IMG/VR virus record: IMGVR_UViG_3300038465_000068
Span: 3,053-67,052 of that record
Reading direction: 5' to 3' (one strand)
Length of the DNA: 64,000 nucleotides
DNA from: a virus
In this document: positions 531 to 62,934 of the stretch, piece after piece
Position numbering within the stretch: position 1 is the first letter of the stretch
Layout: each line of letters begins with the position of its first letter
The notes under the pieces: generated by a model
The model's database searches: none
Told to the model about the DNA's origin: nothing
What the model saw: the letters and a program-made list of their open reading frames with translations, nothing else
Program-made: the position numbers and the translations under genes

Positions 531-559
531 GATATAGGCCATTCTGTCCTATGGAACAA
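531..559 (-). promoter_or_regulatory. sigma70-like promoter with palindromic operator (534-552) in the spacer
   Basis: TTGTTC-N17-TATATC on minus strand; ATAGGCC-ATTCT-GTCCTAT. Confidence 0.7.
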
Positions 560-44574: not shown

Positions 44575-44603
44575 GATATAGGACGGCCTGTCCTATTTGT
44601 CAT
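44575..44603 (-). promoter_or_regulatory. promoter with perfect operator 44578-44596
   Basis: ATGACA-N17-TATATC; ATAGGAC-GGCCT-GTCCTAT. Confidence 0.8.
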
Positions 44604-45480: not shown

Positions 45481-45597
45481 GATATAGGACAGTCCGTCCT
45501 ATCCTTCAATGGCTATTTTTACGAAATGTTAGTGCCGTTTTTGGCGGAATACCGCCTTTTCTTGGCTCTTGAATAGGACGGCCTGTCCTACTATATT
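45481..45597. promoter_or_regulatory. divergent promoter pair, each with an operator (45484-45502, 45573-45591)
   Basis: Minus: TTGAAG-N17-TATATC; plus: TTGAAT-N17-TATATT; the coding strand switches here. Confidence 0.85.
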
Positions 45598-47925: not shown

Positions 47926-48138
47926 TTGAGATACGCCTATTTGGACGAGGCCCCTGTCGTGTTCACGCTGAATGAGGCGTGGCATTTCGTCGGCGGGGAG
48001 TGGAAGTCGCTGCATCCGGCGGACGCGCACAGCAAGGCGCGGCTGCTATCGAGGGCAGAGTTTGATGCCTATGCGGCCGCAGCCGGTGCCGGGAAGTTGC
48101 CCACCGCCGCTTTCCAGCCCGCCGACAGCGAGTCGTAG
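47926..48138 (+). CDS. small protein overlapping the 3' end of the polyprotein, candidate immunity/antitoxin
   Basis: GAGGAGG RBS at 47902-47908 (in-frame CTG at 47914 or TTG at 47926); globular-looking 70 aa. Confidence 0.6.
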   Translation: MRYAYLDEAPVVFTLNEAWHFVGGEWKSLHPADAHSKARLLSRAEFDAYAAAAGAGKLPTAAFQPADSES

Positions 48139-51100
48139 GCCGGGCGATACACCGCCTGCTGGGCGGCGAACAATTCCGCAGCGCGCGGCGTCTTGGGATC
48201 AAGGCTTCGCCATTCCTTGTATAGATTATGCCCGCCGCCGCCCTTGGGGCTTTTCGCCTCGATCAGGGCAGGCGGTGCGATCAGCACCTCACCGATCTGG
48301 CCGTTCTTGAACTGGACGTTGACGGCGCGGTCGAAATATCCCTCGGCCTTCATCTTGTAGCCCTCGTCAGTTGCCGGGAATTTCTCGGCGAGCGCCTTGG
48401 CGACGGCATTGGCCTGTTCCAGCGTGTCGACGGCGAAGGTGCCGCGCACGATGTCGGTCACACCAGCAGGCGCGCGACCGGCCGCCATCTTGCGCAGCGT
48501 GGCGTGAAAATCTTTCACCAGAACGCGGGGCATTTCCTTGACGCCTGCCGCGCGCCATTGCGTGCCGGTCTCGTCGGCGATCTTGCTGGCGGTCTCGTCC
48601 AGCGTCGCCTTGTTGGCCTCGGCTCCTGCATAGACTTGCTCGATGCTGTGGAGCGGGCTGTTCTTGATCCATATGTCCTTGACGTTGCGCGAGTCGAGCG
48701 GGCCCACACCCTTGTTGCCGGGATTGTTGAGGTGGTCGGCCATGCGCTCATAGGCGTCATCCTCGTCAAGGCTTTCGAGATACGTCGGGCCTTGGTGCGC
48801 GCCATCACCCCACGATTCTGATGAACCGGCGTTGTTGCCACCGCCGGTCCAGCGGCCATCCTCGTCACGCGGCTCGGTCTCGCTGTACTTGGCGAACTGC
48901 TTGGCGAAGGCGCGCGCCAGCATCTTGCGCAGGCCCTTCTCCTCGGCCCAGCCGTCGTTGATCGGCGCGTGCACCTCCGGCCCGAACACCAGCGGGAAAG
49001 CTGGCGGCGTGGTCCCGGTCAGGTCTTTGCCGCCGCTGTCATAGGACAGGGTGACGTGGGTGAGATATTGCGGCCAGTCGTGCGATGCGCCCGCCGCCAT
49101 GGCTTCCTTGTGCCGGGCTTGCAGGTCATCGCTGTGGAAGTGCAGCACGACCGCACCCTTGTCGCCCAGCCCCATGATACCGCGCCGACCGCCGACCGCC
49201 GACACGGTGTCATCGTTCGGCTCCAGCGCCACCGGCTTGCGGCTATAGACCTGCGTGACGTGCATTTCGTGGGGCGGCACGAGATTTGGGATACCAGCGC
49301 GGGACGCCCATGCGTGCAGGCGCTCGGCATTGGCTAGTGGGCGATGGACGTACAGGCTGTCTGGCACGGCCAGCTTGCGCACCGCAGCCAGCGCGCCGTC
49401 GAAGGTGATCGACTTGGTCATGTCCGGGTCGGTGGAGGAAAAACGGCCATGCTCGTCATGGCTGGGGTTGAACTTCGCGACAGCGCCTAGCGCCTCGCCG
49501 AAGGTCAGCGCGCGCTTTTGCGCTTCAAGCTGGGAAGCCCACCGATCCCTAATCCCCCGCCATAGGTCTCCGGCGCTGCGTCCTTGATATTGGGATGGAT
49601 CGGATGCAATGGCCGCTTCGTAAGCGGCGCGTCCTCGTGCCCGCTGGTCGGCGTCGGTTCCTGTCCCTTCGTGGTCTCCGATGAACTCTGCATGACCGGC
49701 GGTCCTTGTGGCGTCGACATTGTGGGCAGCGGCAAAATCACCGACAGCGTGCCCAAGGGAGCCGTCAGTGTCCACCACCAGAACGCGGGTGCCGGAGGTG
49801 CTGGGAACTAAGGTGTGGAACCCGATGCCTGCTTTCAAGAGGGCGGCATGGGTTTCGGCAGGCTGGCCGGGCACCGTCAGGTCATACAGGGCGTGTGGCC
49901 CGTCCTGCGCCTTGTTGAACACAAGGACGGCCTTCTGGTTGGCGAGGTGGCCCTTCATCACCGTGGCCAGCCGCAAGGCTGCTGGGCTCGCTGTGTCGCT
50001 CTCCGTGAGGGTGGCGTTCTCTGCACCGTCCGACCATGCCCCGATCACCCCGGCCTGCTGGCTGACCAGCCCCAGCCGGTTGTCGATGTCCCGGGACATT
50101 GCCTCAAAAACCTTCTGGCGCGGCCCGGACAGGTCGTGCACCGCGCCGCCGAAATCCTTGTCGTGGATGCTGGCGCTGGCGAACGCCATGCCTGTCCACT
50201 TCCCGTCCTCGTCGCGGGGCTGATCCGGGTCGAATTTCTCGATGTGCCCGTCCACCGGGATCACGATGTAGAACGTAAGCGGCGGCCCGACCTTGCCGAA
50301 CAACAGCTTCTCGGCCTCCTTCGCTGACAGCGGCTTGATCCATTCCGGCTTAATCGGGCCAATGTGCCGCCACGCCGGATTTTCCCCAGTGAACGGATTG
50401 GGCTCAAACCTTTCGTCGGGTTTGACGTTGGGCGATTCCTCCGGCGGCAGGGTGACGCGCAGCAGCACAGGCTTCGTTCCGGTTTGCTCGGCCGCGTATT
50501 CGGCAAAGCGCGCTGCAACATCGGGGTACGGCGACATATAGACGGACATCTTGCGGTCGCCTGCCATCATGGTCTCGCGGGGCATGCCGCGCTCAATTCC
50601 CCACTTGTCAGCACCTTCGCCCTTGTGCGGGATCAAGCCCTCTTTCTTGATCGCCGCCAGCGCAGCCTTCGCGGTGCCGTGATAGAACGTGCCGCCGCCA
50701 GCCCAGCGCCCATGGTCATCCCGCTCCTCGTCGGGGTTGAACTTGCGCACGGCCGCCAGCGCAGTAGCGAAGTCCATGGCAGGCGTCGGGCTGGGCGGCG
50801 GCTTTGACAGCCAGTGCGGCAGCTTGTGCGCCATTTCCATTTCCAGCACGTCGATATTCAATTTGCCGCCGCTCTCCCACACGCCGCCATCAGCCTTGGT
50901 GATCGGCGAACTTTTGAAGTCCGGCGCGGCATCCTTCCATGCGTCCCACTTCTGCCAAGCCGTGCCCATCACCACAATCTCGCGCTCGCTCTGCACATTC
51001 TGGCCATAGACCGGGACGGACAGGATCGCGGTGCGCGGCACGCTGGCGCGCAGCACAACGCGGGTTTCATTGTCCGGGTGGAAGCCGACGCCACCCCAGC

Positions 51101-53282
51101 CGTTTGCCACGCTGCGGGTCGCTGTGGTGGACATCGCGCCGTTTCGCATGACGTTGATCTCGGGCAGCTTGGTGAAGCCATCGACCCGGACCTTCGGTGT
51201 CGCAGCAATGTCTTTGCCAGACAGCATGACGCCGCGATAGACCTGCACCACCGGCTTGTCGGCCTTGGCGAGGAGATACTGGGTGGTCTCCCACTTCGCG
51301 CGGACATAAGCCTTCACGCCGTCATAGCCGCCGACGTTGGCAAAGATGGAGTTGGCGTCGCTCTTGATCGAGTTGAGGTCATCGGTGTCGAAGTGCGCGA
51401 CGTTCAACCGGCCGCCCATTTCCTCGGCGGCGGCGACTTGCAGGATGCGGCCGTTGGTGCCGCTCGACGATTCCTTCCAGCCGCCCCAGACCTTTTCGTC
51501 GGTGTTTTTGATGTCCTGCATCGTCGGCTCGTCATCGCTGGCCGACCCTGACAGCGCGATCTTTTTGATCCCGCGCGCGCGCATCAGTTCCTTCGTCCGG
51601 CTCTGCGACAGCGCCTCGGCGAGGTCATGGGTGCGGCTGTAATCCTCGGAGTCGACGCTGCCGTCCTCGCTGTCACCGCTGGATGATGTCAGATATTCGT
51701 CGGACAGATTGTTCTGGGCGAACTTGTATTTATCGTCGTCGTCCGTGCTGTCCCAGCTTTCTTGAATCGAGGACTTGGCGGCATCGGCAAGATAGTCTGG
51801 CGGGTCCATGTTACCGGCGCGCTTGTCGCGCTCGATGGCGAAGGCGTCTCTGATCTTGGTGTCGAGACCTTCGCGCATTTCCTGCGTCAGGCGGTCCTGC
51901 GGCTTCTCCGGCTCGACGCCAACAAAGTTCGGATCGGGGTCAAAGCCTTCCGGGCTGTCGAGGGAACTGCCGCCGAACTCCACGCCACTATGCTTGTCGA
52001 GCCTGTCGCCACTGGTATTGAGCGTGATGGCGTCGTCCAGTTGCTCGACCGTGAACGGGATTTTCTTTTCGCCATCCTCCTCGCGGTCATCGAAGTGCTC
52101 TTGGATCGCATCGCGCAACCACTGGCGGCCCTTGTCGCCGCCGGTTTCGTTGTCGGCGATGTCGGTGGCCGCGTCCTCTGGCGCTTGGTTCTCGCGCCAC
52201 TGGTTTTCCTGATAGTCCACCTCCTGCTGGAGATTGTTTTCGAGGTACGCCTCCTCGGCCTTCGTCTGCGCATCACCTGTCAGGCCATCCCAGTCCGTCG
52301 CCTTGCCATCGCTATCGCCAACAGCGTCGCCGATGGGCTCGACGTGCTCCGGCATGTCGACGTGCAGCGTTTCCTTGCTGGGAAAGAACTCTGGAAATCG
52401 CTGGTCGACCTGCGCAAATTTCATGTCGTCAGAAAATGCGTCAAAGTGCACCCCAGCCTTCAACTCTGCCGCATCGGTGAAGTCTGGAACTTTCATGTTG
52501 AACACATTCTCGGCAGCGGCATGGTCAAAGGCGATTTTCGCCGCGCTCGCCAACGCAATGCGGTCATGCGGGTCCATGCCAGGATAGGCGTTAGGATCGA
52601 GTGTGATGTTGCCGGAAGTGTCGACCGATAGCGCGCTGCCGAGCGTTTTATAATCCGCCAGTTGTATATTGTTGCCGTTCGTAACAGTCAGCATATTCGC
52701 CCCGCCGCTGGACATGCCGGTGCCACCACCACGCGCAGCAGTCAGCGCGCGCATTTTCCAGTCATCAATCTGAAATTCTGCTCCCGGTACTACGCCTTGG
52801 AGCGTCTGCATCCTCGGGTTTTTCACGAGATCGGCGATAGCAACAGCCTTGCCTGGGCCGCGCTGCCAGTCGGCGTTCATTTGATATTGAAAGTCGGTTA
52901 TGTTGCGGGCGATGTAGTTAATGCGGACAGCCGCCTTTTGCGGCGCGGTCAAATCGCCAAAACCTTTCGGGTCTTTGCTGAAATCGGCGGGTGCGGTAAG
53001 CCGCGCGGTCAGCTTTTCGAGGTCAGGTTTCACGCCCTGAAACTGGCGCTCCATGCGGACAGCGGCGTTCTTGTTCCACTCGTCGCCGCCGACGTCGGTG
53101 ACGCGGGCATCCAGCGCAGGCTCGCCACCAAGGCCGGTGGCCGCCGCCACGGCAGCACCGCCTGCGCCGCCGCCGCTGGCAAATTCGCCGCCCTGCGACG
53201 TCCCAGCAGGCTCGTGGTTCGGGTTATACTTGTGGAGAAGGGACGCGGCGGCCATGGCCTCGTCGAATGTCATCGCCCCCAC
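48069..53282 (-). CDS. multi-effector polyprotein (two ART-like domains, unknown domain, Acb1-like 2H phosphoesterase, RelA/SpoT-like domain)
   Basis: YRG/MSTT/EREIVV; FYHGT..IKKEGL; HVTQVYS/HVTLSY; DIVRG/GYFD/GEVLI/HNLY; repeated linker motif. Confidence 0.85.
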   Translation of the reverse strand: MGAMTFDEAMAAASLLHKYNPNHEPAGTSQGGEFASGGGAGGAAVAAATGLGGEPALDARVTDVGGDEWNKNAAVRMERQFQGVKPDLEKLTARLTAPADFSKDPKGFGDLTAPQKAAVRINYIARNITDFQYQMNADWQRGPGKAVAIADLVKNPRMQTLQGVVPGAEFQIDDWKMRALTAARGGGTGMSSGGANMLTVTNGNNIQLADYKTLGSALSVDTSGNITLDPNAYPGMDPHDRIALASAAKIAFDHAAAENVFNMKVPDFTDAAELKAGVHFDAFSDDMKFAQVDQRFPEFFPSKETLHVDMPEHVEPIGDAVGDSDGKATDWDGLTGDAQTKAEEAYLENNLQQEVDYQENQWRENQAPEDAATDIADNETGGDKGRQWLRDAIQEHFDDREEDGEKKIPFTVEQLDDAITLNTSGDRLDKHSGVEFGGSSLDSPEGFDPDPNFVGVEPEKPQDRLTQEMREGLDTKIRDAFAIERDKRAGNMDPPDYLADAAKSSIQESWDSTDDDDKYKFAQNNLSDEYLTSSSGDSEDGSVDSEDYSRTHDLAEALSQSRTKELMRARGIKKIALSGSASDDEPTMQDIKNTDEKVWGGWKESSSGTNGRILQVAAAEEMGGRLNVAHFDTDDLNSIKSDANSIFANVGGYDGVKAYVRAKWETTQYLLAKADKPVVQVYRGVMLSGKDIAATPKVRVDGFTKLPEINVMRNGAMSTTATRSVANGWGGVGFHPDNETRVVLRASVPRTAILSVPVYGQNVQSEREIVVMGTAWQKWDAWKDAAPDFKSSPITKADGGVWESGGKLNIDVLEMEMAHKLPHWLSKPPPSPTPAMDFATALAAVRKFNPDEERDDHGRWAGGGTFYHGTAKAALAAIKKEGLIPHKGEGADKWGIERGMPRETMMAGDRKMSVYMSPYPDVAARFAEYAAEQTGTKPVLLRVTLPPEESPNVKPDERFEPNPFTGENPAWRHIGPIKPEWIKPLSAKEAEKLLFGKVGPPLTFYIVIPVDGHIEKFDPDQPRDEDGKWTGMAFASASIHDKDFGGAVHDLSGPRQKVFEAMSRDIDNRLGLVSQQAGVIGAWSDGAENATLTESDTASPAALRLATVMKGHLANQKAVLVFNKAQDGPHALYDLTVPGQPAETHAALLKAGIGFHTLVPSTSGTRVLVVDTDGSLGHAVGDFAAAHNVDATRTAGHAEFIGDHEGTGTDADQRARGRAAYEAAIASDPSQYQGRSAGDLWRGIRDRWASQLEAQKRALTFGEALGAVAKFNPSHDEHGRFSSTDPDMTKSITFDGALAAVRKLAVPDSLYVHRPLANAERLHAWASRAGIPNLVPPHEMHVTQVYSRKPVALEPNDDTVSAVGGRRGIMGLGDKGAVVLHFHSDDLQARHKEAMAAGASHDWPQYLTHVTLSYDSGGKDLTGTTPPAFPLVFGPEVHAPINDGWAEEKGLRKMLARAFAKQFAKYSETEPRDEDGRWTGGGNNAGSSESWGDGAHQGPTYLESLDEDDAYERMADHLNNPGNKGVGPLDSRNVKDIWIKNSPLHSIEQVYAGAEANKATLDETASKIADETGTQWRAAGVKEMPRVLVKDFHATLRKMAAGRAPAGVTDIVRGTFAVDTLEQANAVAKALAEKFPATDEGYKMKAEGYFDRAVNVQFKNGQIGEVLIAPPALIEAKSPKGGGGHNLYKEWRSLDPKTPRAAELFAAQQAVYRPAYDSLSAGWKAAVGNFPAPAAAA

Positions 53283-55544: not shown

Positions 55545-55576
55545 TTGCATATAGGCCAATCCGTCCTATATGACAA
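55545..55576. promoter_or_regulatory. overlapping bidirectional promoter centred on operator 55551-55569
   Basis: Minus TTGTCA-N17-TATATG; plus TTGCAT-N16-TATATG. Confidence 0.7.
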
Positions 55577-55857: not shown

Positions 55858-56034
55858 TTAGCCCGGGCCGCCGCTGAGATAGACAAGCCCGACGGCACAG
55901 CCGATTGCGATAGCGGTCGCGCCAGCAAAGCCAAAGATGGCCGACAGCACCAAGCCAGCGCCCAGCATGTGCAGCGTGAACATAATAGCCAGCCAGATGG
56001 CCGCCCAGATCGCGACAGCTATCGCCTCGATCAT
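55858..56034 (-). CDS. small two-TM membrane protein (not in ORF track)
   Basis: MIEAIAVAIWAAIWLAIMFTLHMLGAGLVLSAIFGFAG...; ATGA coupling. Confidence 0.55.
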   Translation of the reverse strand: MIEAIAVAIWAAIWLAIMFTLHMLGAGLVLSAIFGFAGATAIAIGCAVGLVYLSGGPG

Positions 56035-56471
56035 GCCGTTTTCTCGGCAGCTTTATTTTTCTCGGCAACGCCTTCAAGCCGCGCCGCCTCGTGCCCGGCG
56101 CTGATGCGCGCCTGCTTCTCCAGTGCGAGACGGCTGGCCTCACTCTCGTCATGGAGTAGCTGCGCCTTCTCGACCAGCTTTTCCACATGCGGGCCTTGCG
56201 CGGCATGGCGTTCGTCAAGCTGACGCTCGGCCCACGCTTGCAGGCAATCGAAGTCGCAAAAGTGGTGCTGGAGGATCACGTCATGCCGGTCATGGTGCGT
56301 AATGTCGATGTTGCCCAGCGTCGGGTGGGCGAGCACGTCCACGACCTCGGTGCCAGCCTTCACCGGGATGCGGACACCCTGCGCCATCAGGTGAAAGCTA
56401 CGGCCTTCACCCTCGCTGATGTTCTTGCCGCAGTTCGGCGCGTCGCAGGTGATGACTTGTTCGCGTGCCAT
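56031..56471 (-). CDS. zinc-finger protein
   Basis: ITCDAPNCG...HFCDFDCL; true start at 56471 (upstream is RNA genes). Confidence 0.7.
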   Translation of the reverse strand: MAREQVITCDAPNCGKNISEGEGRSFHLMAQGVRIPVKAGTEVVDVLAHPTLGNIDITHHDRHDVILQHHFCDFDCLQAWAERQLDERHAAQGPHVEKLVEKAQLLHDESEASRLALEKQARISAGHEAARLEGVAEKNKAAEKTA

Positions 56472-56531
56472 TGGTGTCCCGCTCTGGAAAGTGATGCGGA
56501 CAATCTGGCCTGATTTGGCTGGCCGAGCAAG

Positions 56532-56604
56532 TGGTGGACGGGCCGAGGAGTCGAACCTCGTTTCCCCGCGCCGATGGCGTGGGGCGCGTCCCGCCGCGCC
56601 CGCC
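56532..56604 (-). ncRNA. 73-nt tRNA-like RNA with aberrant D and anticodon arms
   Basis: Acceptor GGCGGGC/GCCCGTC, T arm CGAGG-TTCGACT-CCTCG, 3' ACCA. Confidence 0.7.
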
Positions 56605-56613
56605 TTGAATTTC

Positions 56614-56696
56614 TGGTGCGGCGAACTTCGCCATTTCCACCCTGCGCGCGCTTCCGGCCGGATCATGCGCAAAGGCCCGCCTTGCGGCTGGCACCA
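56614..56696 (-). ncRNA. unidentified structured RNA (multi-way junction, ends CCA)
   Basis: TGGTGC/GCACCA closing stem with three internal hairpins. Confidence 0.5.
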
Positions 56697-56701
56697 CCTC
56701 G

Positions 56702-56790
56702 TTGGTGGGCGCTCGACCATCTGCGCCTCCTCCGGTTTCCCGGCACCTGTTTGCCGCCTTCACGCAGCGGGTCTAAATCGGCGACACCAA
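56702..56790 (-). ncRNA. unidentified structured RNA
   Basis: TTGGTG/CACCAA closing stem; CCGG-GAAA-CCGG hairpin. Confidence 0.5.
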
Positions 56791-56801
56791 ACTGAAATAG
56801 T

Positions 56802-57102
56802 TGGCGGCTTTCTGTTGCCCGGAGGCCGCCTGCACCGCGCATCAACGCCGTTAGGCGGCGATGCGGACTTCTTCGTTGTCGTTGACCTTTACGGTCCTGC
56901 TCGCCTTGGCTTGCGCCGTTTCGATCCGTATCCAGCCGTCGATCCTGTTTCGCCCCCGTGCGCCGCGCATAGGCATCGAACCTATCTCCCTGCCCAGCAT
57001 GGCGGGGCCGCCTCACCTTGAGGCTTGTTCGCGGCTTGGTGGAGGCGGCGGGCATCGCATCCCGCGTCCGGTCAAGTCGTAATCGAAAACATCAGCTTGC
57101 AG
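56802..57102 (-). ncRNA. ssrA: two-piece (circularly permuted) tmRNA
   Basis: Acceptor piece ends GGACGCGGG..CCCGCCGCCTCCACCA (57037); coding piece starts GGGGGCGAAACAGGATCGAC (56957); G3-U Ala pair; tag VNDNEEVRIAA* at 56886-56851. Confidence 0.92.
56961..57035 (-). ncRNA. tRNA-like element inside the tmRNA intervening segment
   Basis: GCCGCG/CGCGGC acceptor, D arm GCCT-CAAGGTG-AGGC, T arm ATAGG-TTCGATG-CCTAT. Confidence 0.7.
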
Positions 57103-57109
57103 TTCGTGA

Positions 57110-57138
57110 GATATAGGACCGGATGGCCTATGCGTCAA
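57110..57138 (-). promoter_or_regulatory. promoter of the RNA operon with operator 57113-57131
   Basis: TTGACG-N17-TATATC; ATAGGAC-CGGAT-GGCCTAT. Confidence 0.8.
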
Positions 57139-57422
57139 TACCGAGGCTGGCGCGTTATACGCGGGTACCTCGCTCGCCGGGCCGTTGTCATAAGCCCCCC
57201 AGCCCCTCGATGGCGGTGGACGAGCGAGGTTCATATCACCACAAATTCAAAGCCTTGGGATGACATGCACAAATCGGCATACGAAATATGCGCCGGATTA
57301 TGCGTCAGGCCGCTTTTGCCGACGGGTGCTGAATACCAGTAGCGCGACGATGATCCAGAACGTGTGCATGACATTTCGCCCACCCAGAGGCCGTATAACG
57401 CGGGCCGGGCAGTTATCGGCAC

Positions 57423-57454
57423 AAAGAAAAAGCCCGGCAGTTTCCCGCCGGGCC
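57423..57454 (-). terminator. rho-independent terminator ending the terminase-portal-MuF operon
   Basis: GGCCCGGCG-GGAAAC-TGCCGGGCT-TTTTCTTT on the minus strand. Confidence 0.85.
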
Positions 57455-58195: not shown

Positions 58196-59338
58196 TTATG
58201 ACTGCTTTTGCTTCTCCCGCGCAATAGCGGCCTCGCGGTCGGTGATCTCCTCGTGCTGAATATCGTCGTCGTCGCCGATGTCATCCTCCTCCTCTTGGTC
58301 GATATAGGTGATGCAGCGGCAGTTCGGGTGCAGCGGCGGCGCGAGGATGGGGCCAAAAGGCGTTTGGAAATAGCCGTCTAGCATGACGCCATCCGGGTTC
58401 ATGTCGGGCACTTGCTCGCAGTATTCGCACAGCCTGTCGTCCGGCGTCACCAGCCAGTAGCGCCGCGTGTCCTGCCCAGCCAGCAGGCCGTTATCCACAG
58501 CCTGTCGCCACGCAAGCTGCATCGCCGTGTTGGAGGCACGCATGGTCTCGGTGCGGGAGATTGTCTCGGCTCGATCCCTAATGGTGTTGTTGCGGTAGCG
58601 GTTGACCATGGTGGTGATCTGTTCGTCGGTCAGTTCGCGGTCGGCGTTGGGGCCAAGCGCGCGGTTGAGCGTCGGATCATGGCGGCGGTCGCGCCGAGCC
58701 CGGGTCAGCGCCGTGCGGTCCTTGTTCCGCAGCATGCGCTCGAAATTGTCCACAGCCGCAGCTTGGTTCTCGGTCAGGCCGAGGCTTTCGCGGATTTTGC
58801 GCGCTTGCTCATAGGGATGGCCGCCCATCTTGAAGGCGTCCTCGATCACCCGGCGGATACCGTCGCGGGTGTCCTGCGAAACCTGTTGGATCAGGCCAAA
58901 GTCGTAATTGCGCAAGAATGTTGCGGCGTGGGGGTTTGTCAGGTTGAAGGACATACCAGCGCGCACGCCCAGAGTCCGTGCCGTGGTCTTGCGCCCGGCT
59001 TGGATAAACACGTCCTCCAGCGGCGTGGTCAGGCCCGGCTTGAGCGCATCGGTCAGTTCGGCCTCGACGCCCAGCGCGCGCATCGCGCCAGCCACGTCGC
59101 CGCGCTCGATGGCGTCGCGCAGCATTTCCTCTTTGATGGTGTTGCGCACGCGGCGCAGCGCCTCAAGGAAGGCAGCGGCAACGGTCGGCCCGGCCTTGTC
59201 GGCGATGGCCAGCAGCCAGTCTGGGTCCGGCGGCGGGGGTGGACCGTCCGCCTTGCTGATCGGCCGGTTCCAAGTTTGCCGGAGCGGCGCTGTCCCCAGC
59301 AGGCGTTGCCGGTGCTTACAGGCGCTAGGGACGATCAC
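58196..59338 (-). CDS. MuF/SPP1 gp7-family minor head protein
   Basis: RAETISRTE, W...DDRLC..C, PPLHPNCRC. Confidence 0.92.
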   Translation of the reverse strand: MIVPSACKHRQRLLGTAPLRQTWNRPISKADGPPPPPDPDWLLAIADKAGPTVAAAFLEALRRVRNTIKEEMLRDAIERGDVAGAMRALGVEAELTDALKPGLTTPLEDVFIQAGRKTTARTLGVRAGMSFNLTNPHAATFLRNYDFGLIQQVSQDTRDGIRRVIEDAFKMGGHPYEQARKIRESLGLTENQAAAVDNFERMLRNKDRTALTRARRDRRHDPTLNRALGPNADRELTDEQITTMVNRYRNNTIRDRAETISRTETMRASNTAMQLAWRQAVDNGLLAGQDTRRYWLVTPDDRLCEYCEQVPDMNPDGVMLDGYFQTPFGPILAPPLHPNCRCITYIDQEEEDDIGDDDDIQHEEITDREAAIAREKQKQS

Positions 59339-60819
59339 AGAGGCTTGCGCCTCCGGCGCTTGCCGACCGTGCCGCCCGCCGTGGAACCGCCGCCACCGCC
59401 TGCGGCTGTGCCACCAGAGGCCGGTTTCGCCCCGGGCATGCCGGGAGGCAGCTTTTCCTTGGCCTTGATCTCGGCCTCTTGGTTCTGCTGGTCCTGTTCC
59501 TGCCCGTCTGACACAGCGGTCGGATTGTCGGCGGCTGGCAGGCCAGCCTCCTCGCGCAGGTGGGCCTCCAGCGTATCGTCGGGAACCAGCGCGCCAGCGG
59601 TGGCGATGTCGGTGATGTACTGGCCAAGCTGCATCAGGTCCGACTTGGCGATGTCGCCGTGCGTGACCGTGACCTGCCCCTTCATGGCGTTGAGGCGCAG
59701 CAGTTCCGTCGCGCCGCGCTGGACCTCGCTGCTGATGATGTCGAGGTAGCCGATCACCGCGTTGTTGAACATTTCGGTCTTGTTCTGGGATTGCGCGCCG
59801 TGCCCGCCCATCCCGCCGCCACCGCCGTGCTGCTGACCCAGTGTGATGAAGTCGGCCATCATGCAGGCCGTCATGCCGTGGTCATAGCGTCCGATAATCT
59901 CGGTGGTGGCGAACTGGCGGCGGCCGCCGGTCGCCAGCAACTCGACCTTGAAAATGAGGTTCTTGTTGGCGTCATAGATCGCCGGGACGATCATGCCGCT
60001 TTGCTCGTTGTTGTTGACGAGATTGACCATTTCCTTGACGTAGGCCAGCGCGGCCTTGTCGTCCTCGCTGGCGTCTTTCTTGAACCACGCGGACGGCACC
60101 GTCACCACCGGCATGCCGCAGAGGTCGCGGCTCACGCCGATGGCCTCGATCTGCTGCACGCGCTTTTTCAGATAATAATACTCGTACATCGACCGCAGGA
60201 TGCTTCGGCCTTCCGGGTTGTTCTTGTACGGCGTGGTGCGGAAATGCAGGCACTTCGACAGCGGCACGTTCAACAGCGGGCCGCCGGTCGGCAATAGCTG
60301 CACCATGGAGATCGGATCGCCGTTTGGCTGAAACGTCCAGTGCAGCAGCGTCTCTTGCGCGCGCCCGGCGAACTTGCGCCAGCCCAGCTTGCCATCGGTG
60401 TACTGGGATCGCTGCGACGGGTCATCACCATCCGGCCCGCGCCGATATTTGTAGACCACCTCGTAAACGCCAAAGCCGTATTGCAGGAACGACAGCGCGT
60501 CGGCCATGAAGTCGGCCCAGCTATGCTCCATGTCGGCAAAGCAGCTTTGAACGAAATCGGCGGCGTCCTCGTCCTCCTGCTTGCCATCGGTGACGGCCTT
60601 GACCCGGAACGGCACCGGGCGCAGCAGCATTTCGACAGCCATCAGGATCGCGGAAATGATCGGGTCGTTGTCCCGCATTTCGCGCAGCATGAGCATGCCG
60701 CGACGGCCGATAAGGCTGCGCAGCCACTCCTCGCGGACATAGCCCGAGAATTGGCGCAGGCCGGTCGCGCCGAACTCCAGCACCGCGTCGCCGACTCCAT
60801 ACGGTTTCTTGCTGGCCAT
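59335..60819 (-). CDS. portal protein (DUF935-like)
   Basis: EMRDNDPII, NPEGRSILR, IEAIGVSRDLCGMP; between TerL and MuF. Confidence 0.9.
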   Translation of the reverse strand: MASKKPYGVGDAVLEFGATGLRQFSGYVREEWLRSLIGRRGMLMLREMRDNDPIISAILMAVEMLLRPVPFRVKAVTDGKQEDEDAADFVQSCFADMEHSWADFMADALSFLQYGFGVYEVVYKYRRGPDGDDPSQRSQYTDGKLGWRKFAGRAQETLLHWTFQPNGDPISMVQLLPTGGPLLNVPLSKCLHFRTTPYKNNPEGRSILRSMYEYYYLKKRVQQIEAIGVSRDLCGMPVVTVPSAWFKKDASEDDKAALAYVKEMVNLVNNNEQSGMIVPAIYDANKNLIFKVELLATGGRRQFATTEIIGRYDHGMTACMMADFITLGQQHGGGGGMGGHGAQSQNKTEMFNNAVIGYLDIISSEVQRGATELLRLNAMKGQVTVTHGDIAKSDLMQLGQYITDIATAGALVPDDTLEAHLREEAGLPAADNPTAVSDGQEQDQQNQEAEIKAKEKLPPGMPGAKPASGGTAAGGGGGSTAGGTVGKRRRRKPL

Positions 60820-60848: not shown

Positions 60849-62585
60849 CTACCGGATCACGAACGGATTGTCCTGTTGCAGGTCTTTGTTGGCCTTTCCG
60901 ATCTCAAGCCCGGTGCCGTGGTCGACCGGCTCCTCGATGAAAGTCAGGACAAAGGCGTCCGCGTCGTCCGGGCTGGCGATGTGGCGCACGGCAAGTTGTT
61001 TCTTGGTCTCGATCACAATTTTGCCCTTCTCGTTGCGGAACCACTTGGGGGTGGAAAGCTGCATGGCCAGCGTGGCGTCGTCGGGGATGACCAGCACCTC
61101 GTTCCACTTTTGCTCGATGCCGCCAGCCTGCTTTGTCAGCCATTGATAGTGCAGATACGACCGCTGGAAGGCGGCGCGCGCCAGCCACCAGATTTCGGCC
61201 TTGAGGTTGCCGAATTTGGCGTCGCTGGTGGTCTCGTCCGGCCAGACCCGGTCGCTCGGCGGGTTGCCGGTATTGATCGGCACCGCTCCGGTCAGGGTGG
61301 GATATTTGGCGCGGTCCAGATGGGTGAAGGCCGAAAGCACGCCAGCGCCGACGCCCGGCACGTCGAAATTCAGCAGGTGCGAGCCCGCCGTCACCATGCA
61401 GTCCAGCATCCAGATGGCGGTGTCGGTGGTATCGGCTTCCTGCCTGCGCTCTGGCTCCAGCACCAGCGGGCCGAAGCGGTGAACGATGACGCTGTTGGCC
61501 TTGCCCGCTCCCACGTCGCCGCCGCTGATGCCGCGCTTGGCCCTCGGGACCATCACGCCGAAGTCGCGGCCTAAGTCCACCGCCGCCTGAACCCATTTGG
61601 CTGGGATGGCGACGCCCTCTTGCGCGCCCGTATAACTGATCTCGTATTCGACGTCCCAAGTGGATGGGTCGGCCAAGGTGGCCTTTTTCTCGGTGGCCCA
61701 TGCGTCGTTCTTGCGTGGATCATCGCGCCAGTGCAGCCGGAACAGCGCGCCCGGGATTTTGGCGAACATCGCCCGCTTCTGCGCAAAAAAATTGGCCAGC
61801 CCGCCGTTTTCAGGGTTTGGGGTCGAGACCCAGCCGACGCAATCGGTGTTGCCGGATACCGCCGCCTCAACACGCTTGGCGTTGGCGATGTAAGCCGCCT
61901 CGTCGGCAACAAACCACGATGACCGTCCGCCACGGCCGGGATTTTCGCCTGTCACGCCGGTTATGACCGCCCCGTTTATCGGATTGGTCAGTTGCATAAC
62001 AAGGTCGTGTTTCCGCTCGACAACCCCCTCCGGCATCATCCATAGGGGCAGGCGGCGAACGATGATGCGCATTTTCTCGAAAATGCTGTCCGGGTTGCCC
62101 TTGCTATCGACGTTCTCGGCGTCGTTGGAGCAAAACGTGGTTTTGAAGCCGGGGCAGAACAGCCAGCGCCAGATGGCATAGCCCACCAGCAGGTAGGTCG
62201 CGCCTTGGTCGCGGGACTTCTCCAACAGGAACGGCTTGCCAGCCGAGACGCGCACATGCAGCGCCCGCAGAAATTCCTCCTGCTTCGGCCATGGGATAAA
62301 CCGGACATAGGGGGTTTTGTTTTCGGCAATCAGGCGCGGGTCGAAGGTCCACGCCCAGTTGCGGAACCAATGGATCAGCCCGTCAGCGCCGTTGGCGCAC
62401 TTGGCTATTTCCTTGGCGTGGCTGGCCTTGTCGCCATGCAGGATTTTGAAGTCGATCTCAGCTTTGGCGCGCTGGTGTTGGGCCTCGATCTGGTCGAGGT
62501 GGGTTTGCAGCAGCCGGTCGAGATAGTCAGCAGCCTTACGGGAATTGACCAGCCGCGATAGCTGCCTTGGCAAGTCGGATGGCAT
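60849..62585 (-). CDS. terL: terminase large subunit (start uncertain)
   Basis: EKSRDQGAT Walker A, FVADEAA Walker B, GGDVG and SPDDADA nuclease motifs. Confidence 0.93.
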   Translation of the reverse strand: MPSDLPRQLSRLVNSRKAADYLDRLLQTHLDQIEAQHQRAKAEIDFKILHGDKASHAKEIAKCANGADGLIHWFRNWAWTFDPRLIAENKTPYVRFIPWPKQEEFLRALHVRVSAGKPFLLEKSRDQGATYLLVGYAIWRWLFCPGFKTTFCSNDAENVDSKGNPDSIFEKMRIIVRRLPLWMMPEGVVERKHDLVMQLTNPINGAVITGVTGENPGRGGRSSWFVADEAAYIANAKRVEAAVSGNTDCVGWVSTPNPENGGLANFFAQKRAMFAKIPGALFRLHWRDDPRKNDAWATEKKATLADPSTWDVEYEISYTGAQEGVAIPAKWVQAAVDLGRDFGVMVPRAKRGISGGDVGAGKANSVIVHRFGPLVLEPERRQEADTTDTAIWMLDCMVTAGSHLLNFDVPGVGAGVLSAFTHLDRAKYPTLTGAVPINTGNPPSDRVWPDETTSDAKFGNLKAEIWWLARAAFQRSYLHYQWLTKQAGGIEQKWNEVLVIPDDATLAMQLSTPKWFRNEKGKIVIETKKQLAVRHIASPDDADAFVLTFIEEPVDHGTGLEIGKANKDLQQDNPFVIR

Positions 62586-62934
62586 CGGCACCGCCCTTGG
62601 CGATTGCCGCCGCGAGCCCTTCGAGGCCCGCCGTGTCGAGGCCGATTTCAATACGAGCCCCATACTTGTCCCTCATTTTGCGCTCGGCATACCAGCGCAC
62701 GGTCGCCATGTCCCCGGCCTTGAGCGCCTTGGCGATGGCCCCCTCGGCATGATCCTTCATGTCATCGTCGATTTCGGCCATGACGGCCTGCAACTGCGGT
62801 GAGCGGGCGATGCGCTCGTGCACGTTCTGCCGGGCCAGCCCCAGCGCCTCGGCGGCGCGCGGCACGATGCCGTCAGCAGCCCGCAGCGCAGCGGCAACCT
62901 TGGCGATTGTGTGATTGGTCTTACCCTTGGCCAC
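62536..62934 (-). CDS. terS: terminase small subunit
   Basis: N-terminal HTH (AAEALGLARQNV); directly upstream of TerL. Confidence 0.75.
   Translation of the reverse strand: MAKGKTNHTIAKVAAALRAADGIVPRAAEALGLARQNVHERIARSPQLQAVMAEIDDDMKDHAEGAIAKALKAGDMATVRWYAERKMRDKYGARIEIGLDTAGLEGLAAAIAKGGADAIRLAKAAIAAGQFP

What the first reader, a model, noticed from the sequence alone, without database searches (positions are those of the whole stretch)
56532..57138. Phage small-RNA operon: five consecutive structured RNAs, most ending in CCA
Seen: behind one operator-controlled promoter lie the tmRNA acceptor piece (CCA at 57037), a tRNA-like element, the tmRNA coding piece (ends GCCGCCA at 56802), two unknown closed-stem RNAs (CCA at 56703 and 56614) and a second tRNA-like RNA (CCA at 56532), with short spacers. 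Inference: a polycistronic precursor cut by tRNA-processing nucleases into a set of translation-machinery mimics or decoys. I know of no described equivalent.
Basis: partly seen in the sequence, partly recalled or inferred. Interest (0 to 1): 0.88.

Follow-up and report, generated by a model that had tools for sequence, protein, structure and literature searches.

The report
Phage tmRNA gene with tRNA-like modules
A peat-soil phage carries its own two-piece ribosome-rescue RNA (tmRNA) gene whose cut-out spacer and trailer hold tRNA-shaped but non-decoding elements and one conserved RNA of unknown role; phage tmRNAs are known, the add-ons are unusual, and the evidence rests on only two phage genomes.

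Summary
The core is real. An alpha-type two-piece tmRNA gene lies on the minus strand at 57142-56799 (Rfam RF01849, 74.7 bits), between phage head genes. Its promoter carries a 19-bp palindrome found 5 times in the window against 0.06 expected.

- **Spacer:** the 79-nt spacer folds as a cloverleaf with a canonical T arm. No tRNA model accepts it (best hit 15.9 bits).
- **Last unit (56604-56532):** a paralog of the spacer element (z 5.2). ARAGORN calls it tRNA-Asp(AUC), but it lacks U33, its anticodon loop can zip shut, and it is absent from the only relative.
- **Unit 1 (56790-56702):** a conserved stem-closed junction RNA. All 15 tested pairs are kept in both phages, 6 through double changes. 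No match in Rfam.
- **Unit 2:** no support.
- **"Ending in CCA":** not supported. The unit-1 CCA lies inside its closing stem and is absent from the relative.

Tmrna-tRNA clusters are common in phages: 17 of 78 loci. A tRNA inside a permuted tmRNA spacer is in print once (PMC11915505). Earlier unchecked notes of this scan report it in other phages.

Verdict: a new variant of a known kind. A precursor punctuated by tRNA-like handles is plausible; decoy roles are untested.

The parts
57422..57454 (-). Intrinsic-terminator-like hairpin (GGCCCGGC / GCCGGGCU) followed by a U run. It closes the upstream head-gene unit.
   Evidence: Read directly from the sequence. The consensus scan did not list it.
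57110..57138 (-). Promoter with operator-like palindrome: -35 TTGACG (57138-57133), 19-bp palindrome ATAGGCCATCCGGTCCTAT (57131-57113), -10 CTATAT/TATATC (57116-57110).
   Evidence: Aligned to the promoter part of the Rfam alpha_tmRNA model. The palindrome class occurs at 5 sites against 0.06 expected, and the flanks are shown. In L002 the left arm is imperfect.
57037..57104 (-). tmRNA acceptor piece: P2 3' strand, T arm GCGGG/CCCGC, acceptor 3' strand CGCCUCC, ACCA. The 5' end is approximate.
   Evidence: Rfam RF01849 at 74.7 bits and RF04321 at 70.0 bits. Near-identical in L002 (87% over 102 nt).
56958..57036 (-). Intervening segment holding a tRNA-like cloverleaf (57035-56962): acceptor GCCGCG/CGCGGC, 6-bp D-like arm, closed 'anticodon' arm, T arm AUAGG-UUCGAUG-CCUAU, and no encoded CCA.
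   Evidence: Fold z -2.0. Weak full-length tRNA-Sec-like hit at 15.9 bits. The closing stem and T-arm hairpin are kept in L002 through double changes. A strict T arm occurs in only 2 of 63 distinct phage spacers.
56799..56957 (-). tmRNA coding piece: G1 at 56957; tag frame 56886-56851 (GUC resume codon, VNDNEEVRIAA, UAA); final hairpin GGCGGC/GCCGCC.
   Evidence: Rfam alignment. L002 encodes VNDNEEVRLAA, and its final hairpin changes to GGCCGG/CCGGCC.
56791..56798 (-). AU-rich linker (AUUUCAGU) between the tmRNA and unit 1.
   Evidence: Sequence. L002 has a U-rich linker at the same place.
56702..56790 (-). Unit 1, a conserved stem-closed junction RNA. It comprises a closing stem UUGGUG/CACCAA, an invariant 15-nt joining strand, a variable hairpin, the invariant strand AAACAGGUG, a GNRA hairpin, and a 5-bp hairpin with the invariant 10-nt loop AGAUGGUCGA that abuts the closing stem.
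   Evidence: All 15 tested pairs form in both phages, 6 with changes on both sides. 13 of 500 shuffles reach this, and slid controls give 0-1. No Rfam match at E <= 10. A covariance model finds no other copy in 169 sources. MFE alone is not better than shuffles (z -0.66).
56605..56701 (-). Unit 2: unsupported filler or a variable module. It ends in the hairpin GGCGA-AGU-UCGCC, then GCACCA and the AU-rich linker GAAAUUCAA.
   Evidence: Fold z +0.28 and -0.07. Only marginal similarity to a relocated L002 stretch. The linker aligns with GAAUUUCAU in L002.
56532..56604 (-). Unit 3, a tRNA-like RNA and paralog of the spacer element. It has acceptor GGCGGGC/GCCCGUC, a 3-bp D arm with GG, an 'anticodon' loop CCAUCGG without U33 that can close to a triloop, T arm CGAGG-UUCGACU-CCUCG, and tail CACCA.
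   Evidence: ARAGORN calls tRNA-Asp(atc) at 56536-56604. Fold z -2.0. A 41-nt alignment to the spacer element scores 26, z 5.2, with 0 of 200 shuffles as good. Best Rfam clan hit is only 6.8 bits. Not present in L002.
56498..56540 (-). Conserved box, promoter-like: TTGCTC (56530-56525), 17-nt spacer, CAGATT (56507-56502). It overlaps the 3' tail of unit 3.
   Evidence: Best local alignment between the two trailers: score 43 against a null of 19.3 +/- 2.4. The hexamers and spacing are read. The consensus scan did not call it.
56031..56471 (-). First downstream protein gene (146 aa, cysteine/histidine-rich, no family). The in-frame upstream extension to ATG 56720 is not coding.
   Evidence: GC by codon position is 0.73/0.39/0.75 in the gene but a flat 0.65/0.67/0.69 in the extension. 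Homologs exist in L002 and P0002.

Best explanation
This is a phage-borne, alpha-proteobacterial-type two-piece tmRNA gene. It is driven by one of the phage's own palindrome-bearing sigma-70-type promoters and embedded in a non-coding array of stem-closed, tRNA-shaped modules that I read mainly as processing punctuation.

Inferred steps:
1. One precursor is made from about 57104 rightwards on the minus strand, to at least 56532.
2. RNase P cuts at the 5' side of each tRNA-like coaxial acceptor/T-type helix. The first cut is 1 nt after the acceptor piece's CCA, at the spacer cloverleaf.
3. The second cut is at G1 of the coding piece.
4. The third cut is at unit 3.
5. A further cut is possibly at unit 1. 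Unit 1 begins 167 nt after G1, the place where marine phages carry tRNA-Arg.
6. Exonucleases trim the short tails, and RNase E may cut the AU-rich linkers.

The products would be a functional Ala-accepting two-piece tmRNA that uses the host's SmpB, plus released by-products.

Unit 1 is under selection of its own and probably has an added role, as a ligand- or protein-binding element or a stabiliser of the tmRNA 3' end. Unit 3 is a recent duplicate of the spacer element. Unit 2 is filler.

Shown: the tmRNA identity, the folds, the paralogy, the unit 1 covariation and the promoter family. Inferred: co-transcription, every cleavage, and any function of the by-products.
For: - **tmRNA identity:** Rfam 74.7 and 70.0 bits here and 85.3 and 72.6 bits in the relative. 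G3:U70, ACCA and the tag frame are read.
- **Phage context:** terminase, Mu-type portal and MuF upstream; major head and tail genes further on.
- **Promoter family:** 5 sites against 0.06 expected. No terminator-like site lies between 57138 and 56472.
- **Stem-closed spacers are the rule:** 57 of 63 distinct phage alpha-type spacers.
- **tRNA geometry in this spacer:** here the closing stem plus T arm gives 7+5 stacked positions.
- **Selection on the spacer fold:** its T-arm hairpin and closing stem keep pairing in L002 through double changes.
- **Precedent for punctuation by tRNAs:** 17 of 78 phage tmRNA loci have tRNA-Arg(UCU) starting 150-165 nt after G1. Unit 1 starts at +167.
- **Unit 1:** 15 of 15 pairs are kept, with 6 compensatory changes.
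- **Unit 3:** a paralog of the spacer element.
- **Trailer is not coding:**
- **Established knowledge (recalled, not read here):** RNase P separates some polycistronic tRNA transcripts in E. coli and recognises the stacked acceptor/T helix.
Against: - No RNA data exist. No listed run holding this DNA is on record as RNA.
- Only two distinct phages carry the array, so covariation rests on two sequences. 13 of 500 shuffles reach the observed value for unit 1.
- Unit 3 is missing from the relative, whose spacer has a 48-nt insertion after the T arm and is not tRNA-shaped. The tRNA-like shape is therefore not strictly required.
- 57 of 63 phage spacers manage with a plain stem-loop.
- Unit 1 has an 11-bp rather than a 12-bp stack and a 10-nt, not 7-nt, loop. 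Its MFE is not better than shuffles.
- A promoter-like conserved box lies after unit 3. The downstream gene may therefore be a separate unit, and in L002 a unit-2-like piece lies behind that box.
Confidence: 0.5

Rival explanations
1. The array yields five or six discrete, stable, CCA-ended small RNAs that act as mimics or decoys of the translation machinery, for example for tRNA-targeting defence nucleases, aminoacyl-tRNA synthetases, the CCA-adding enzyme or SmpB.
For: - Three cloverleaf-type folds lie beside the tmRNA.
- In a 4-nt slipped register, unit 3 would present G3:U70, A73 and CCA like the tmRNA acceptor. That is why the one-piece tmRNA model gives a weak 6.8-bit hit.
- A tag-less tmRNA-like RNA of phage DS6A is reported to inhibit host tmRNA (PMC11915505, passage read).
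- CCACCA occurs 3 times in 643 nt against 0.43 expected from the window's rate (my arithmetic on the counts).
Against: - The unit 1 CCA is inside its closing stem and absent from L002.
- Unit 2 has no support.
- The spacer element encodes no CCA.
- The best register of unit 3 leaves a 5-nt CACCA tail with G2:U71 rather than G3:U70.
- Both 'anticodon' arms are closed rods, so they cannot bait anticodon nucleases.
- Unit 3 is not conserved in the relative.
- The phage record encodes no SmpB, Ro60/TROVE or CCA-adding enzyme.
Confidence: 0.12
2. Unit 1 is a cis-acting sensor or leader (riboswitch-like aptamer or protein-binding site) in the 3' domain of the phage ssrA transcript. It would control read-through, stability or translation of what follows, as proposed for the glutamine riboswitch in the 3' domain of ssrA in phage Melnitz. 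The tRNA-like elements are incidental.
For: - Unit 1 has the signature of an aptamer: variable, compensated stems around invariant joining strands and an invariant 10-nt loop.
- A GAGG...AUG (SD-like plus start codon) sits in its last hairpin in both phages.
- There is precedent for a structured sensor fused to phage ssrA (PMC9004378, passages read).
Against: - No Rfam riboswitch family matches at E <= 10, glnA included.
- The frame opened by that AUG is not conserved and shows no coding periodicity.
- The next real gene is 230 nt (window) to 460 nt (L002) away, behind its own promoter-like box.
- No terminator-like expression platform follows.
Confidence: 0.2
3. The tRNA-like elements are decaying remnants of real tRNA genes that once sat in the spacer and behind the tmRNA, as in other phages. 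They are now neutral passengers. Only the tmRNA, and perhaps unit 1, is functional.
For: - Other phages carry real tRNAs behind the tmRNA (17 of 78 loci).
- One published case (PMC11915505) and earlier unchecked notes of this scan report real tRNAs inside the spacer.
- Both elements fail every tRNA model threshold and lack a 7-nt U33 loop.
- Unit 3 is absent from L002, and the L002 spacer is disrupted by an insertion.
Against: - Acceptor stems and T arms remain fully paired with canonical T loops.
- The spacer T-arm hairpin changed by two compensated pairs between the two phages.
- Unit 3 arose by duplication of the already non-decoding element (shared closed-arm sequence). That argues for reuse of the shape rather than decay of an independent tRNA.
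Confidence: 0.15

Closest known systems
Phage-encoded two-piece (circularly permuted) tmRNA genes, e.g. OM43 phage Melnitz and pelagimyophages (PMC9004378, passages read). 53 of 133 unique phage tmRNAs were called two-piece there.
   Same: Same gene order (acceptor piece, spacer, coding piece). Alpha-proteobacterial type, placed behind a sigma-70-type promoter in a phage, with an extra structured RNA directly after the coding piece and tRNA genes nearby.
   Different: - Those phages are mostly marine or aquatic myophages. This is a peat-soil siphovirus-like genome at 62% G+C.
- Their 3' add-on is a glnA-type glutamine riboswitch or a real tRNA-Arg. Here it is an unmatched junction RNA (unit 1) plus non-decoding tRNA-like elements.
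Intact tRNA-Ala gene inside the intervening sequence of one permuted tmRNA, called a unique feature in the 2025 tmRNA database paper (PMC11915505, passage read). Earlier unchecked notes of this scan report tRNA-Glu, Tyr, Asn and Asp in phage tmRNA spacers.
   Same: A tRNA-shaped element fills the stem-closed spacer, so that tRNA-processing cuts would free both tmRNA pieces.
   Different: - Here the element is not a tRNA: ARAGORN does not call it, its best Rfam score is 15.9 bits, its anticodon arm is closed and it has no CCA.
- It has a paralog at the end of the array.
Polycistronic bacterial tRNA operons separated by RNase P, and the tRNA punctuation model of mitochondrial transcripts (recalled; no paper read here).
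   Same: tRNA-shaped units serve as cleavage signposts that define the ends of neighbouring RNAs.
   Different: The signposts here would be non-decoding mimics flanking a tmRNA and an unknown RNA. No cleavage has been shown.
Tag-less tmRNA-like RNA of mycobacteriophage DS6A (as cited in PMC11915505, passage read).
   Same: A small phage RNA made only of a tRNA-like domain with an Ala-type acceptor. Unit 3 could present G3:U70/A73/CCA in a slipped register.
   Different: The thermodynamically best register of unit 3 is not Ala-type. The Rfam tmRNA score is only 6.8 bits, and this phage also has a complete tmRNA.
Bacterial Y RNAs (YrlA) with tRNA-like domains (PMC4201824; only the search listing and the start of the abstract were seen).
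   Same: Non-decoding RNAs that mimic the tRNA elbow and acceptor.
   Different: No Rfam Y-RNA match and no Ro60/TROVE gene in the phage record.

Membership tests
Alpha-proteobacterial two-piece tmRNA (Rfam RF01849 / RF04321) | Covariance-model score at or above the curated gathering score | tested here: met
   74.7 bits (gathering 50) and 70.0 bits (gathering 47). The relative scores 85.3 and 72.6 bits.
Alpha-proteobacterial two-piece tmRNA (Rfam RF01849 / RF04321) | Permuted order: acceptor piece ending CCA, intervening segment, then the coding piece starting with the 5' acceptor strand | tested here: met
   ACCA at 57040-57037, spacer 57036-56958, G1 at 56957 (alignment, sequence).
Alpha-proteobacterial two-piece tmRNA (Rfam RF01849 / RF04321) | Alanine identity (G3:U70) and a tag reading frame ending in hydrophobic-Ala-Ala plus a stop | tested here: met
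   GGGGGCG/CGCCUCC gives G3:U70. The tag is VNDNEEVRIAA-UAA (56886-56851), and L002 has ...RLAA. The resume codon is GUC, not the usual GCN.
Alpha-proteobacterial two-piece tmRNA (Rfam RF01849 / RF04321) | Processing into two pieces, charging by AlaRS, and SmpB-dependent trans-translation | not testable with these tools
   No RNA run holds the locus. No SmpB gene is in the phage record, so the host's SmpB would be needed.
tRNA (ARAGORN / Rfam clan CL00001), for unit 3 (56604-56532) | Recognised by tRNA finders at their thresholds | tested here: inconclusive
   ARAGORN calls tRNA-Asp(atc). The best Rfam clan hit over the unit is 6.8 bits to RF00023, and no tRNA hit survives.
tRNA (ARAGORN / Rfam clan CL00001), for unit 3 (56604-56532) | Seven-nucleotide anticodon loop with U33 and a purine at position 37, usable for decoding | tested here: not met
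   The loop CCAUCGG has C at position 33. The MFE closes it to a triloop on a 9-position stem. An A34 Asp anticodon is not a normal bacterial decoder (general knowledge).
tRNA nested in a permuted tmRNA spacer (PMC11915505 case) | [quoted passage not shown] | tested here: not met
   ARAGORN makes no call. The best Rfam hit is tRNA-Sec at 15.9 bits against a gathering score of 47, E 0.4. Only the cloverleaf shape and the T arm are kept.
Glutamine riboswitch (glnA motif) in the 3' domain of phage ssrA (Melnitz type) | Match to the glnA RNA or any riboswitch covariance model directly after the coding piece | tested here: not met
   A permissive Rfam scan (E <= 10) of 56300-57400 lists no riboswitch family. 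The same holds for the L002 trailer.
   No SRP family appears among the matches at E <= 10. The 3' side of the GNRA hairpin differs between the two phages.
Tag-less tmRNA-like RNA (DS6A type), for unit 3 | tRNA-like domain with G3:U70, A73 and CCA, recognised by a tmRNA model | tested here: inconclusive
   RF00023 scores 6.8 bits, E 2.8, far below its gathering score of 47. The Ala-type register needs a 4-nt slip and a C.C mismatch. The MFE register gives G2:U71 and tail CACCA.

The most novel reading that the evidence does not exclude
The phage makes, from one regulated promoter, a set of non-decoding tRNA-shaped RNAs together with its tmRNA: the spacer element, unit 1 and unit 3. These are released by RNase P and act in trans on the host's tRNA and ribosome-rescue machinery or on tRNA-directed defence systems. 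Possible actions are titrating a processing or modifying enzyme, SmpB or AlaRS. Unit 1 would be a new class of tRNA-elbow mimic.
Probability: 0.15. Interest if true: 0.8.

Novelty: new variant of a known kind. Interest (0 to 1): 0.5.

Why it matters
How the two pieces of permuted tmRNAs are cut out of their precursor is poorly defined. A spacer that is itself tRNA-shaped, a duplicate of it at the end of the array, and real tRNAs at the matching places in other phages all point to one testable rule. Under that rule, phages use tRNA-type handles to let RNase P do the cutting.

Unit 1 is a compact, covarying junction RNA with long invariant single strands and no database match. It is a candidate new RNA motif attached to a ribosome-rescue gene.

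The promoter/operator family ties the array into the phage's own regulatory programme. All of this is cheap to test: an in vitro RNase P assay, Northern blots, and probing.

Tried and rejected
**Searches for more relatives**
- A MuF protein scan of viral contigs gave 2 loci of one phage type.
- A portal scan gave 101 relatives, of which 80 were kept. blastn with the 751-nt RNA region matched only the L002-type loci.
- An Rfam scan of 11 of the 80 portal loci, the closest relatives plus two more, found no tmRNA. It found only a Proteo-phage-1 RNA in L008.
- A scan with the downstream protein found nothing. A scan with a 3-sequence alignment of it found only the L002 type.
- Exact two-anchor patterns of unit 1 found only L002-type contigs in viral contigs. 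In metagenome contigs they found 2 stretches that are 100% and 99.97% identical to L002. In 185,579 species genomes they found nothing.
- A second genome scan with the acceptor-piece pattern hit the 3' ends of ordinary one-piece tmRNAs of many phyla and told nothing about the host.
- A BLAST of the tmRNA gene against 401 sampled genomes of one phylum gave only matches of 22-55 nt to conserved tmRNA cores in 98 of 401. No close host gene appeared and no taxonomy was shown.
- Cultured phage records gave no match to the whole region or to unit 1. For unit 3 there were only 4 chance-level partial hits.
- The protein database holds a third lineage of the downstream protein (P0002), but its contig could not be fetched.

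**Expression and natural variation**
- No RNA holder is listed for this stretch.
- Four DNA runs were laid. Their contigs are identical to the window, so they give no natural variants for covariation.

**Readings considered and rejected**
- SRP-helix-8 likeness of unit 1: no Rfam support.
- A coding N-terminal extension from ATG 56720: GC is flat across codon positions and the frame is not conserved.
- Unit 1 as a duplicate of part of the tmRNA: no significant local similarity.
- Further copies of the tRNA-like element elsewhere in the window or in L006: only loose chance hits inside genes.
- A regulator for the palindrome: no Pfam family in 10 small ORFs tested.

**Papers and supplements**
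- Searches for an equivalent array found only the single tRNA-in-spacer remark and the Melnitz riboswitch case.
- Supplementary tables of PMC11915505 (sequence database) and PMC9004378 (Table S1 of phage tmRNAs) could bear on novelty.
Full report
**What the window is.** The window is 64 kb of a 67-kb IMG/VR virus record. On the minus strand, the genes upstream of the finding are a large terminase (60849-62663), a Mu-type portal (59335-60819) and a MuF-like head morphogenesis protein (58196-59338). Further along lie a major head protein, tape measure, tail fibre, RecT, an exonuclease and methylases. The RNA cluster is therefore inside a tailed-phage genome, not at a prophage-host junction. Public runs that hold the stretch are DNA runs labelled peat, permafrost and, for one small-share holder, freshwater metagenomes. 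None is on record as RNA.

**The tmRNA.** Rfam places an alpha-proteobacterial two-piece tmRNA at 57142-56799 (74.7 bits, E 1.8e-18). The general permuted model matches at 57091-56851 (70.0 bits).
- The alignment and the sequence give the acceptor piece ending ACCA at 57040-57037, a 79-nt intervening segment, and G1 of the coding piece at 56957.
- The acceptor stem carries G3:U70.
- The tag frame GUC AAC GAC AAC GAA GAA GUC CGC AUC GCC GCC UAA spans 56886-56851.
- ARAGORN did not call this tmRNA, probably because of the long spacer.
- The record has no SmpB gene, so the RNA would depend on the host's.

**Promoter.** TTGACG (57138-57133) and CTATAT/TATATC (57116-57110) align with the promoter part of the Rfam model. 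The strict consensus scan did not list it.
- The spacer and -10 region form a 19-bp palindrome, ATAGG-N9-CCTAT.
- This palindrome occurs at five places in the window (534, 44578, 45484, 55551, 57113) against 0.06 expected.
- Each site has a TTGnCn hexamer one base upstream and AT(C/G) downstream on the minus strand.
- In the relative, the left arm of the tmRNA site is imperfect. No DNA-binding family was found in ten small ORFs tested.

**Relatives.** Every search route led to a single other phage type: L002 and its duplicates. Its MuF is 69% and its portal 74% identical.
- It has the same tmRNA (85.3 bits) in the same genomic slot.
- The next portal relatives (about 50% identity) have no tmRNA. 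One of them, L008, carries the orphan Rfam motif Proteo-phage-1 in the same slot.
- All comparative statements below therefore rest on two sequences.

**The intervening segment.** It folds almost entirely into a cloverleaf (-37.0 kcal/mol, z -2.0, 6 of 200 shuffles as good).
- The stem GCCGCG/CGCGGC starts one base after the CCA.
- A 6-bp arm is capped by AGG, and a closed arm has a C.A mismatch.
- The T arm AUAGG-UUCGAUG-CCUAU touches the 3' acceptor strand, so 7+5 positions can stack as in a tRNA.
- Scanned alone, it gives a full-length but far sub-threshold tRNA-Sec-like match (15.9 bits against a gathering score of 47).
- It encodes no CCA; it ends GCAC before G1.
- In L002 the closing stem is different but paired (CAGCACACC/GGUGUGCUG). 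The T-arm hairpin is kept as GGGG-UUCGAUU-CCCC with two compensated pairs. A 48-nt insertion follows it, and the whole is no longer tRNA-shaped.

**Spacers in other phage tmRNAs.** I collected 91 viral stretches with the alpha-type coding-piece start.
- Of 63 distinct spacers, 57 are closed by an uninterrupted stem of at least 6 bp next to the CCA and G1.
- Only 2 of the 63, this one and L091, have a strict T-arm hairpin.
- ARAGORN found no tRNA inside any of the spacers in the 78 flank-extended loci.
- Stem-closed spacers are thus the rule and a tRNA-shaped one is rare.
- In print, one intact tRNA-Ala in a permuted tmRNA spacer is called a unique feature (PMC11915505, passage read).
- Earlier notes of this scan report real tRNAs in the spacers of other phages. 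I did not check them.

**What follows the coding piece in other phages.** In 17 of the 78 loci a tRNA-Arg(UCU) gene starts 150-165 nt after G1, usually followed by tRNA-Ile(UAU). The Melnitz paper reports 53 two-piece forms among 133 unique phage tmRNAs, and a glutamine riboswitch in the 3' domain of ssrA (PMC9004378, passages read). A tmRNA at the head of a small-RNA cluster is therefore not new.

**Unit 1.** The stretch after the tmRNA is the only part of the trailer, apart from a box near the next gene, that aligns well with L002.
- The closing stem is UUGGUG/CACCAA (56790-56785 with 56707-56702). In L002 it is GACGUG/CACGUC.
- A GNRA-capped hairpin changes from CCGG-GAAA-CCGG to CGGC-GCAA-GCCG.
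- A 5-bp hairpin changes from GGCGC/GCGCC to GGUGC/GCACC. It abuts the closing stem and carries an invariant 10-nt loop.
- On the alignment, all 15 pairs form in both phages and all 6 variable pairs changed on both sides. 13 of 500 shuffles reach this, and slid controls give 0-1.
- A variable hairpin sits between two invariant strands (15 nt and 9 nt).
- In the window's MFE these two strands pair (CGCC with GGUG), giving a four-way junction.
- GGUC in the loop could pair with GACC in the 15-nt strand. Both are invariant, so this is untested.
- Energy alone does not distinguish unit 1 from shuffles (z -0.66 and -0.97).
- It has no Rfam match at E <= 10. A covariance model finds nothing else in the window or in 168 loci (next best 16.5 bits). 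The exact anchors are absent from the species genome collection.
- The 'CCA at 56703' is part of the closing stem and is not conserved.

**Unit 2.** Neither border choice folds better than shuffles. The only similarity to L002 is marginal (score 24; null 19.3 +/- 2.4, maximum 27) and lies behind the conserved box there. I treat it as variable filler. Its AU-rich end (GAAAUUCAA) does align with GAAUUUCAU in L002.

**Unit 3.** ARAGORN calls a 69-nt tRNA-Asp(AUC) at 56604-56536, and the cloverleaf has z -2.0.
- It has a full 7-bp acceptor stem, GG in a short D loop and a canonical T arm.
- The 'anticodon' loop CCAUCGG lacks U33 and closes to a triloop in the MFE.
- The tail is CACCA.
- Rfam gives at best 6.8 bits, to the one-piece tmRNA model, which uses a slipped register with G3:U70.
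- A 41-nt local alignment shows it is a paralog of the spacer element (score 26, z 5.2, 0 of 200 shuffles).
- L002 has no counterpart.

**After unit 3.** A 43-nt box (56540-56498) is the best-conserved piece of the trailer (score 43). It reads TTGCTC-N17-CAGATT in both phages, a promoter-like arrangement for the 146-aa gene at 56471-56031. The long in-frame extension up to ATG 56720 shows no codon periodicity and is not conserved.

**The CCA claim.** The 643-nt stretch holds 17 CCA against 12.9 +/- 3.0 in shuffles. CACCA occurs 4 times against 1.5 expected from the window's rate (my Poisson estimate is about 0.06). Only the tmRNA acceptor end is a bona fide CCA terminus.

**Reading.** The best-supported picture is a phage tmRNA gene inside a modular non-coding array whose tRNA-shaped modules mark processing sites.
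- RNase P would cut one base after the acceptor CCA, at G1, at unit 3, and possibly at unit 1.
- Unit 1 begins 167 nt after G1, where marine phages have tRNA-Arg.
- Unit 1 is additionally selected for something unknown.
- Co-transcription, cleavage and any trans-acting role are inferences.
- The decoy reading remains possible but has no positive evidence.

**Dead ends.** These are listed under Tried and rejected.

Noticed in passing
window 534-552, 44578-44596, 45484-45502, 55551-55569, 57113-57131: A 19-bp palindrome ATAGG-N9-CCTAT occurs five times against 0.06 expected. Each copy sits in a -35/-10 promoter frame. It is probably the operator of an unidentified phage regulator. No Pfam family was found in ten small ORFs tested (eight of them at 44-48 kb).
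   Followed up: partly
L008 7625-7713: A phage whose portal is 53% identical carries the orphan Rfam motif Proteo-phage-1 RNA (67.9 bits) directly after its MuF-like gene. This is the same genome slot that holds the tmRNA array here.
   Followed up: partly
L091, L092, L103, L109, L115, L122, L135, L145, L146, L157, L159, L162, L168-L171, L173 (about 150-165 nt after the coding-piece start): In 17 of 78 viral alpha-type tmRNA loci a tRNA-Arg(UCU) gene abuts the tmRNA coding piece and overlaps ARAGORN's predicted tmRNA 3' end. It is usually followed by tRNA-Ile(UAU). RNase P may set the coding piece's 3' end there.
   Followed up: partly
window 48069-53282 (-): A 1737-aa open frame has an Acb1-like 2H phosphoesterase domain (Pfam PF23474, E 1.7e-34, residues 1309-1447). 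It lies 3 kb downstream of the RNA array. Earlier notes of the scan describe further domains in it.
   Followed up: no
window 56602-56631 and 57224-57253: A 30-nt inverted repeat, 77% complementary, links the end of unit 2 and its linker with a stretch upstream of the tmRNA promoter. Nearby, 57215-57225 repeats the 3' acceptor strand of unit 3 at 91% identity. This is unexplained.
   Followed up: no
window 57298-57369 (-): A 23-codon frame encodes a hydrophobic peptide (MHTFWIIVALLVF...). It lies between the upstream terminator and the tmRNA promoter, and the surrounding DNA is partly conserved in L002.
   Followed up: no
protein P0002 (Logan contig of 2767 nt, not fetched): A third lineage of the 146-aa downstream protein exists. 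By the alignment it is 62% identical to the window's protein, and it differs from the L002 protein. Its contig may hold a third copy of the RNA array.
   Followed up: no
L091 spacer (93 nt before its coding-piece start): An unrelated, AT-richer viral contig (tmRNA locus L091) has a spacer that also folds into a stem-closed cloverleaf with a T-arm-like hairpin (CAGGG-UUUGAGU-CCCUG). It is the only other such case among 63 distinct spacers.
   Followed up: partly
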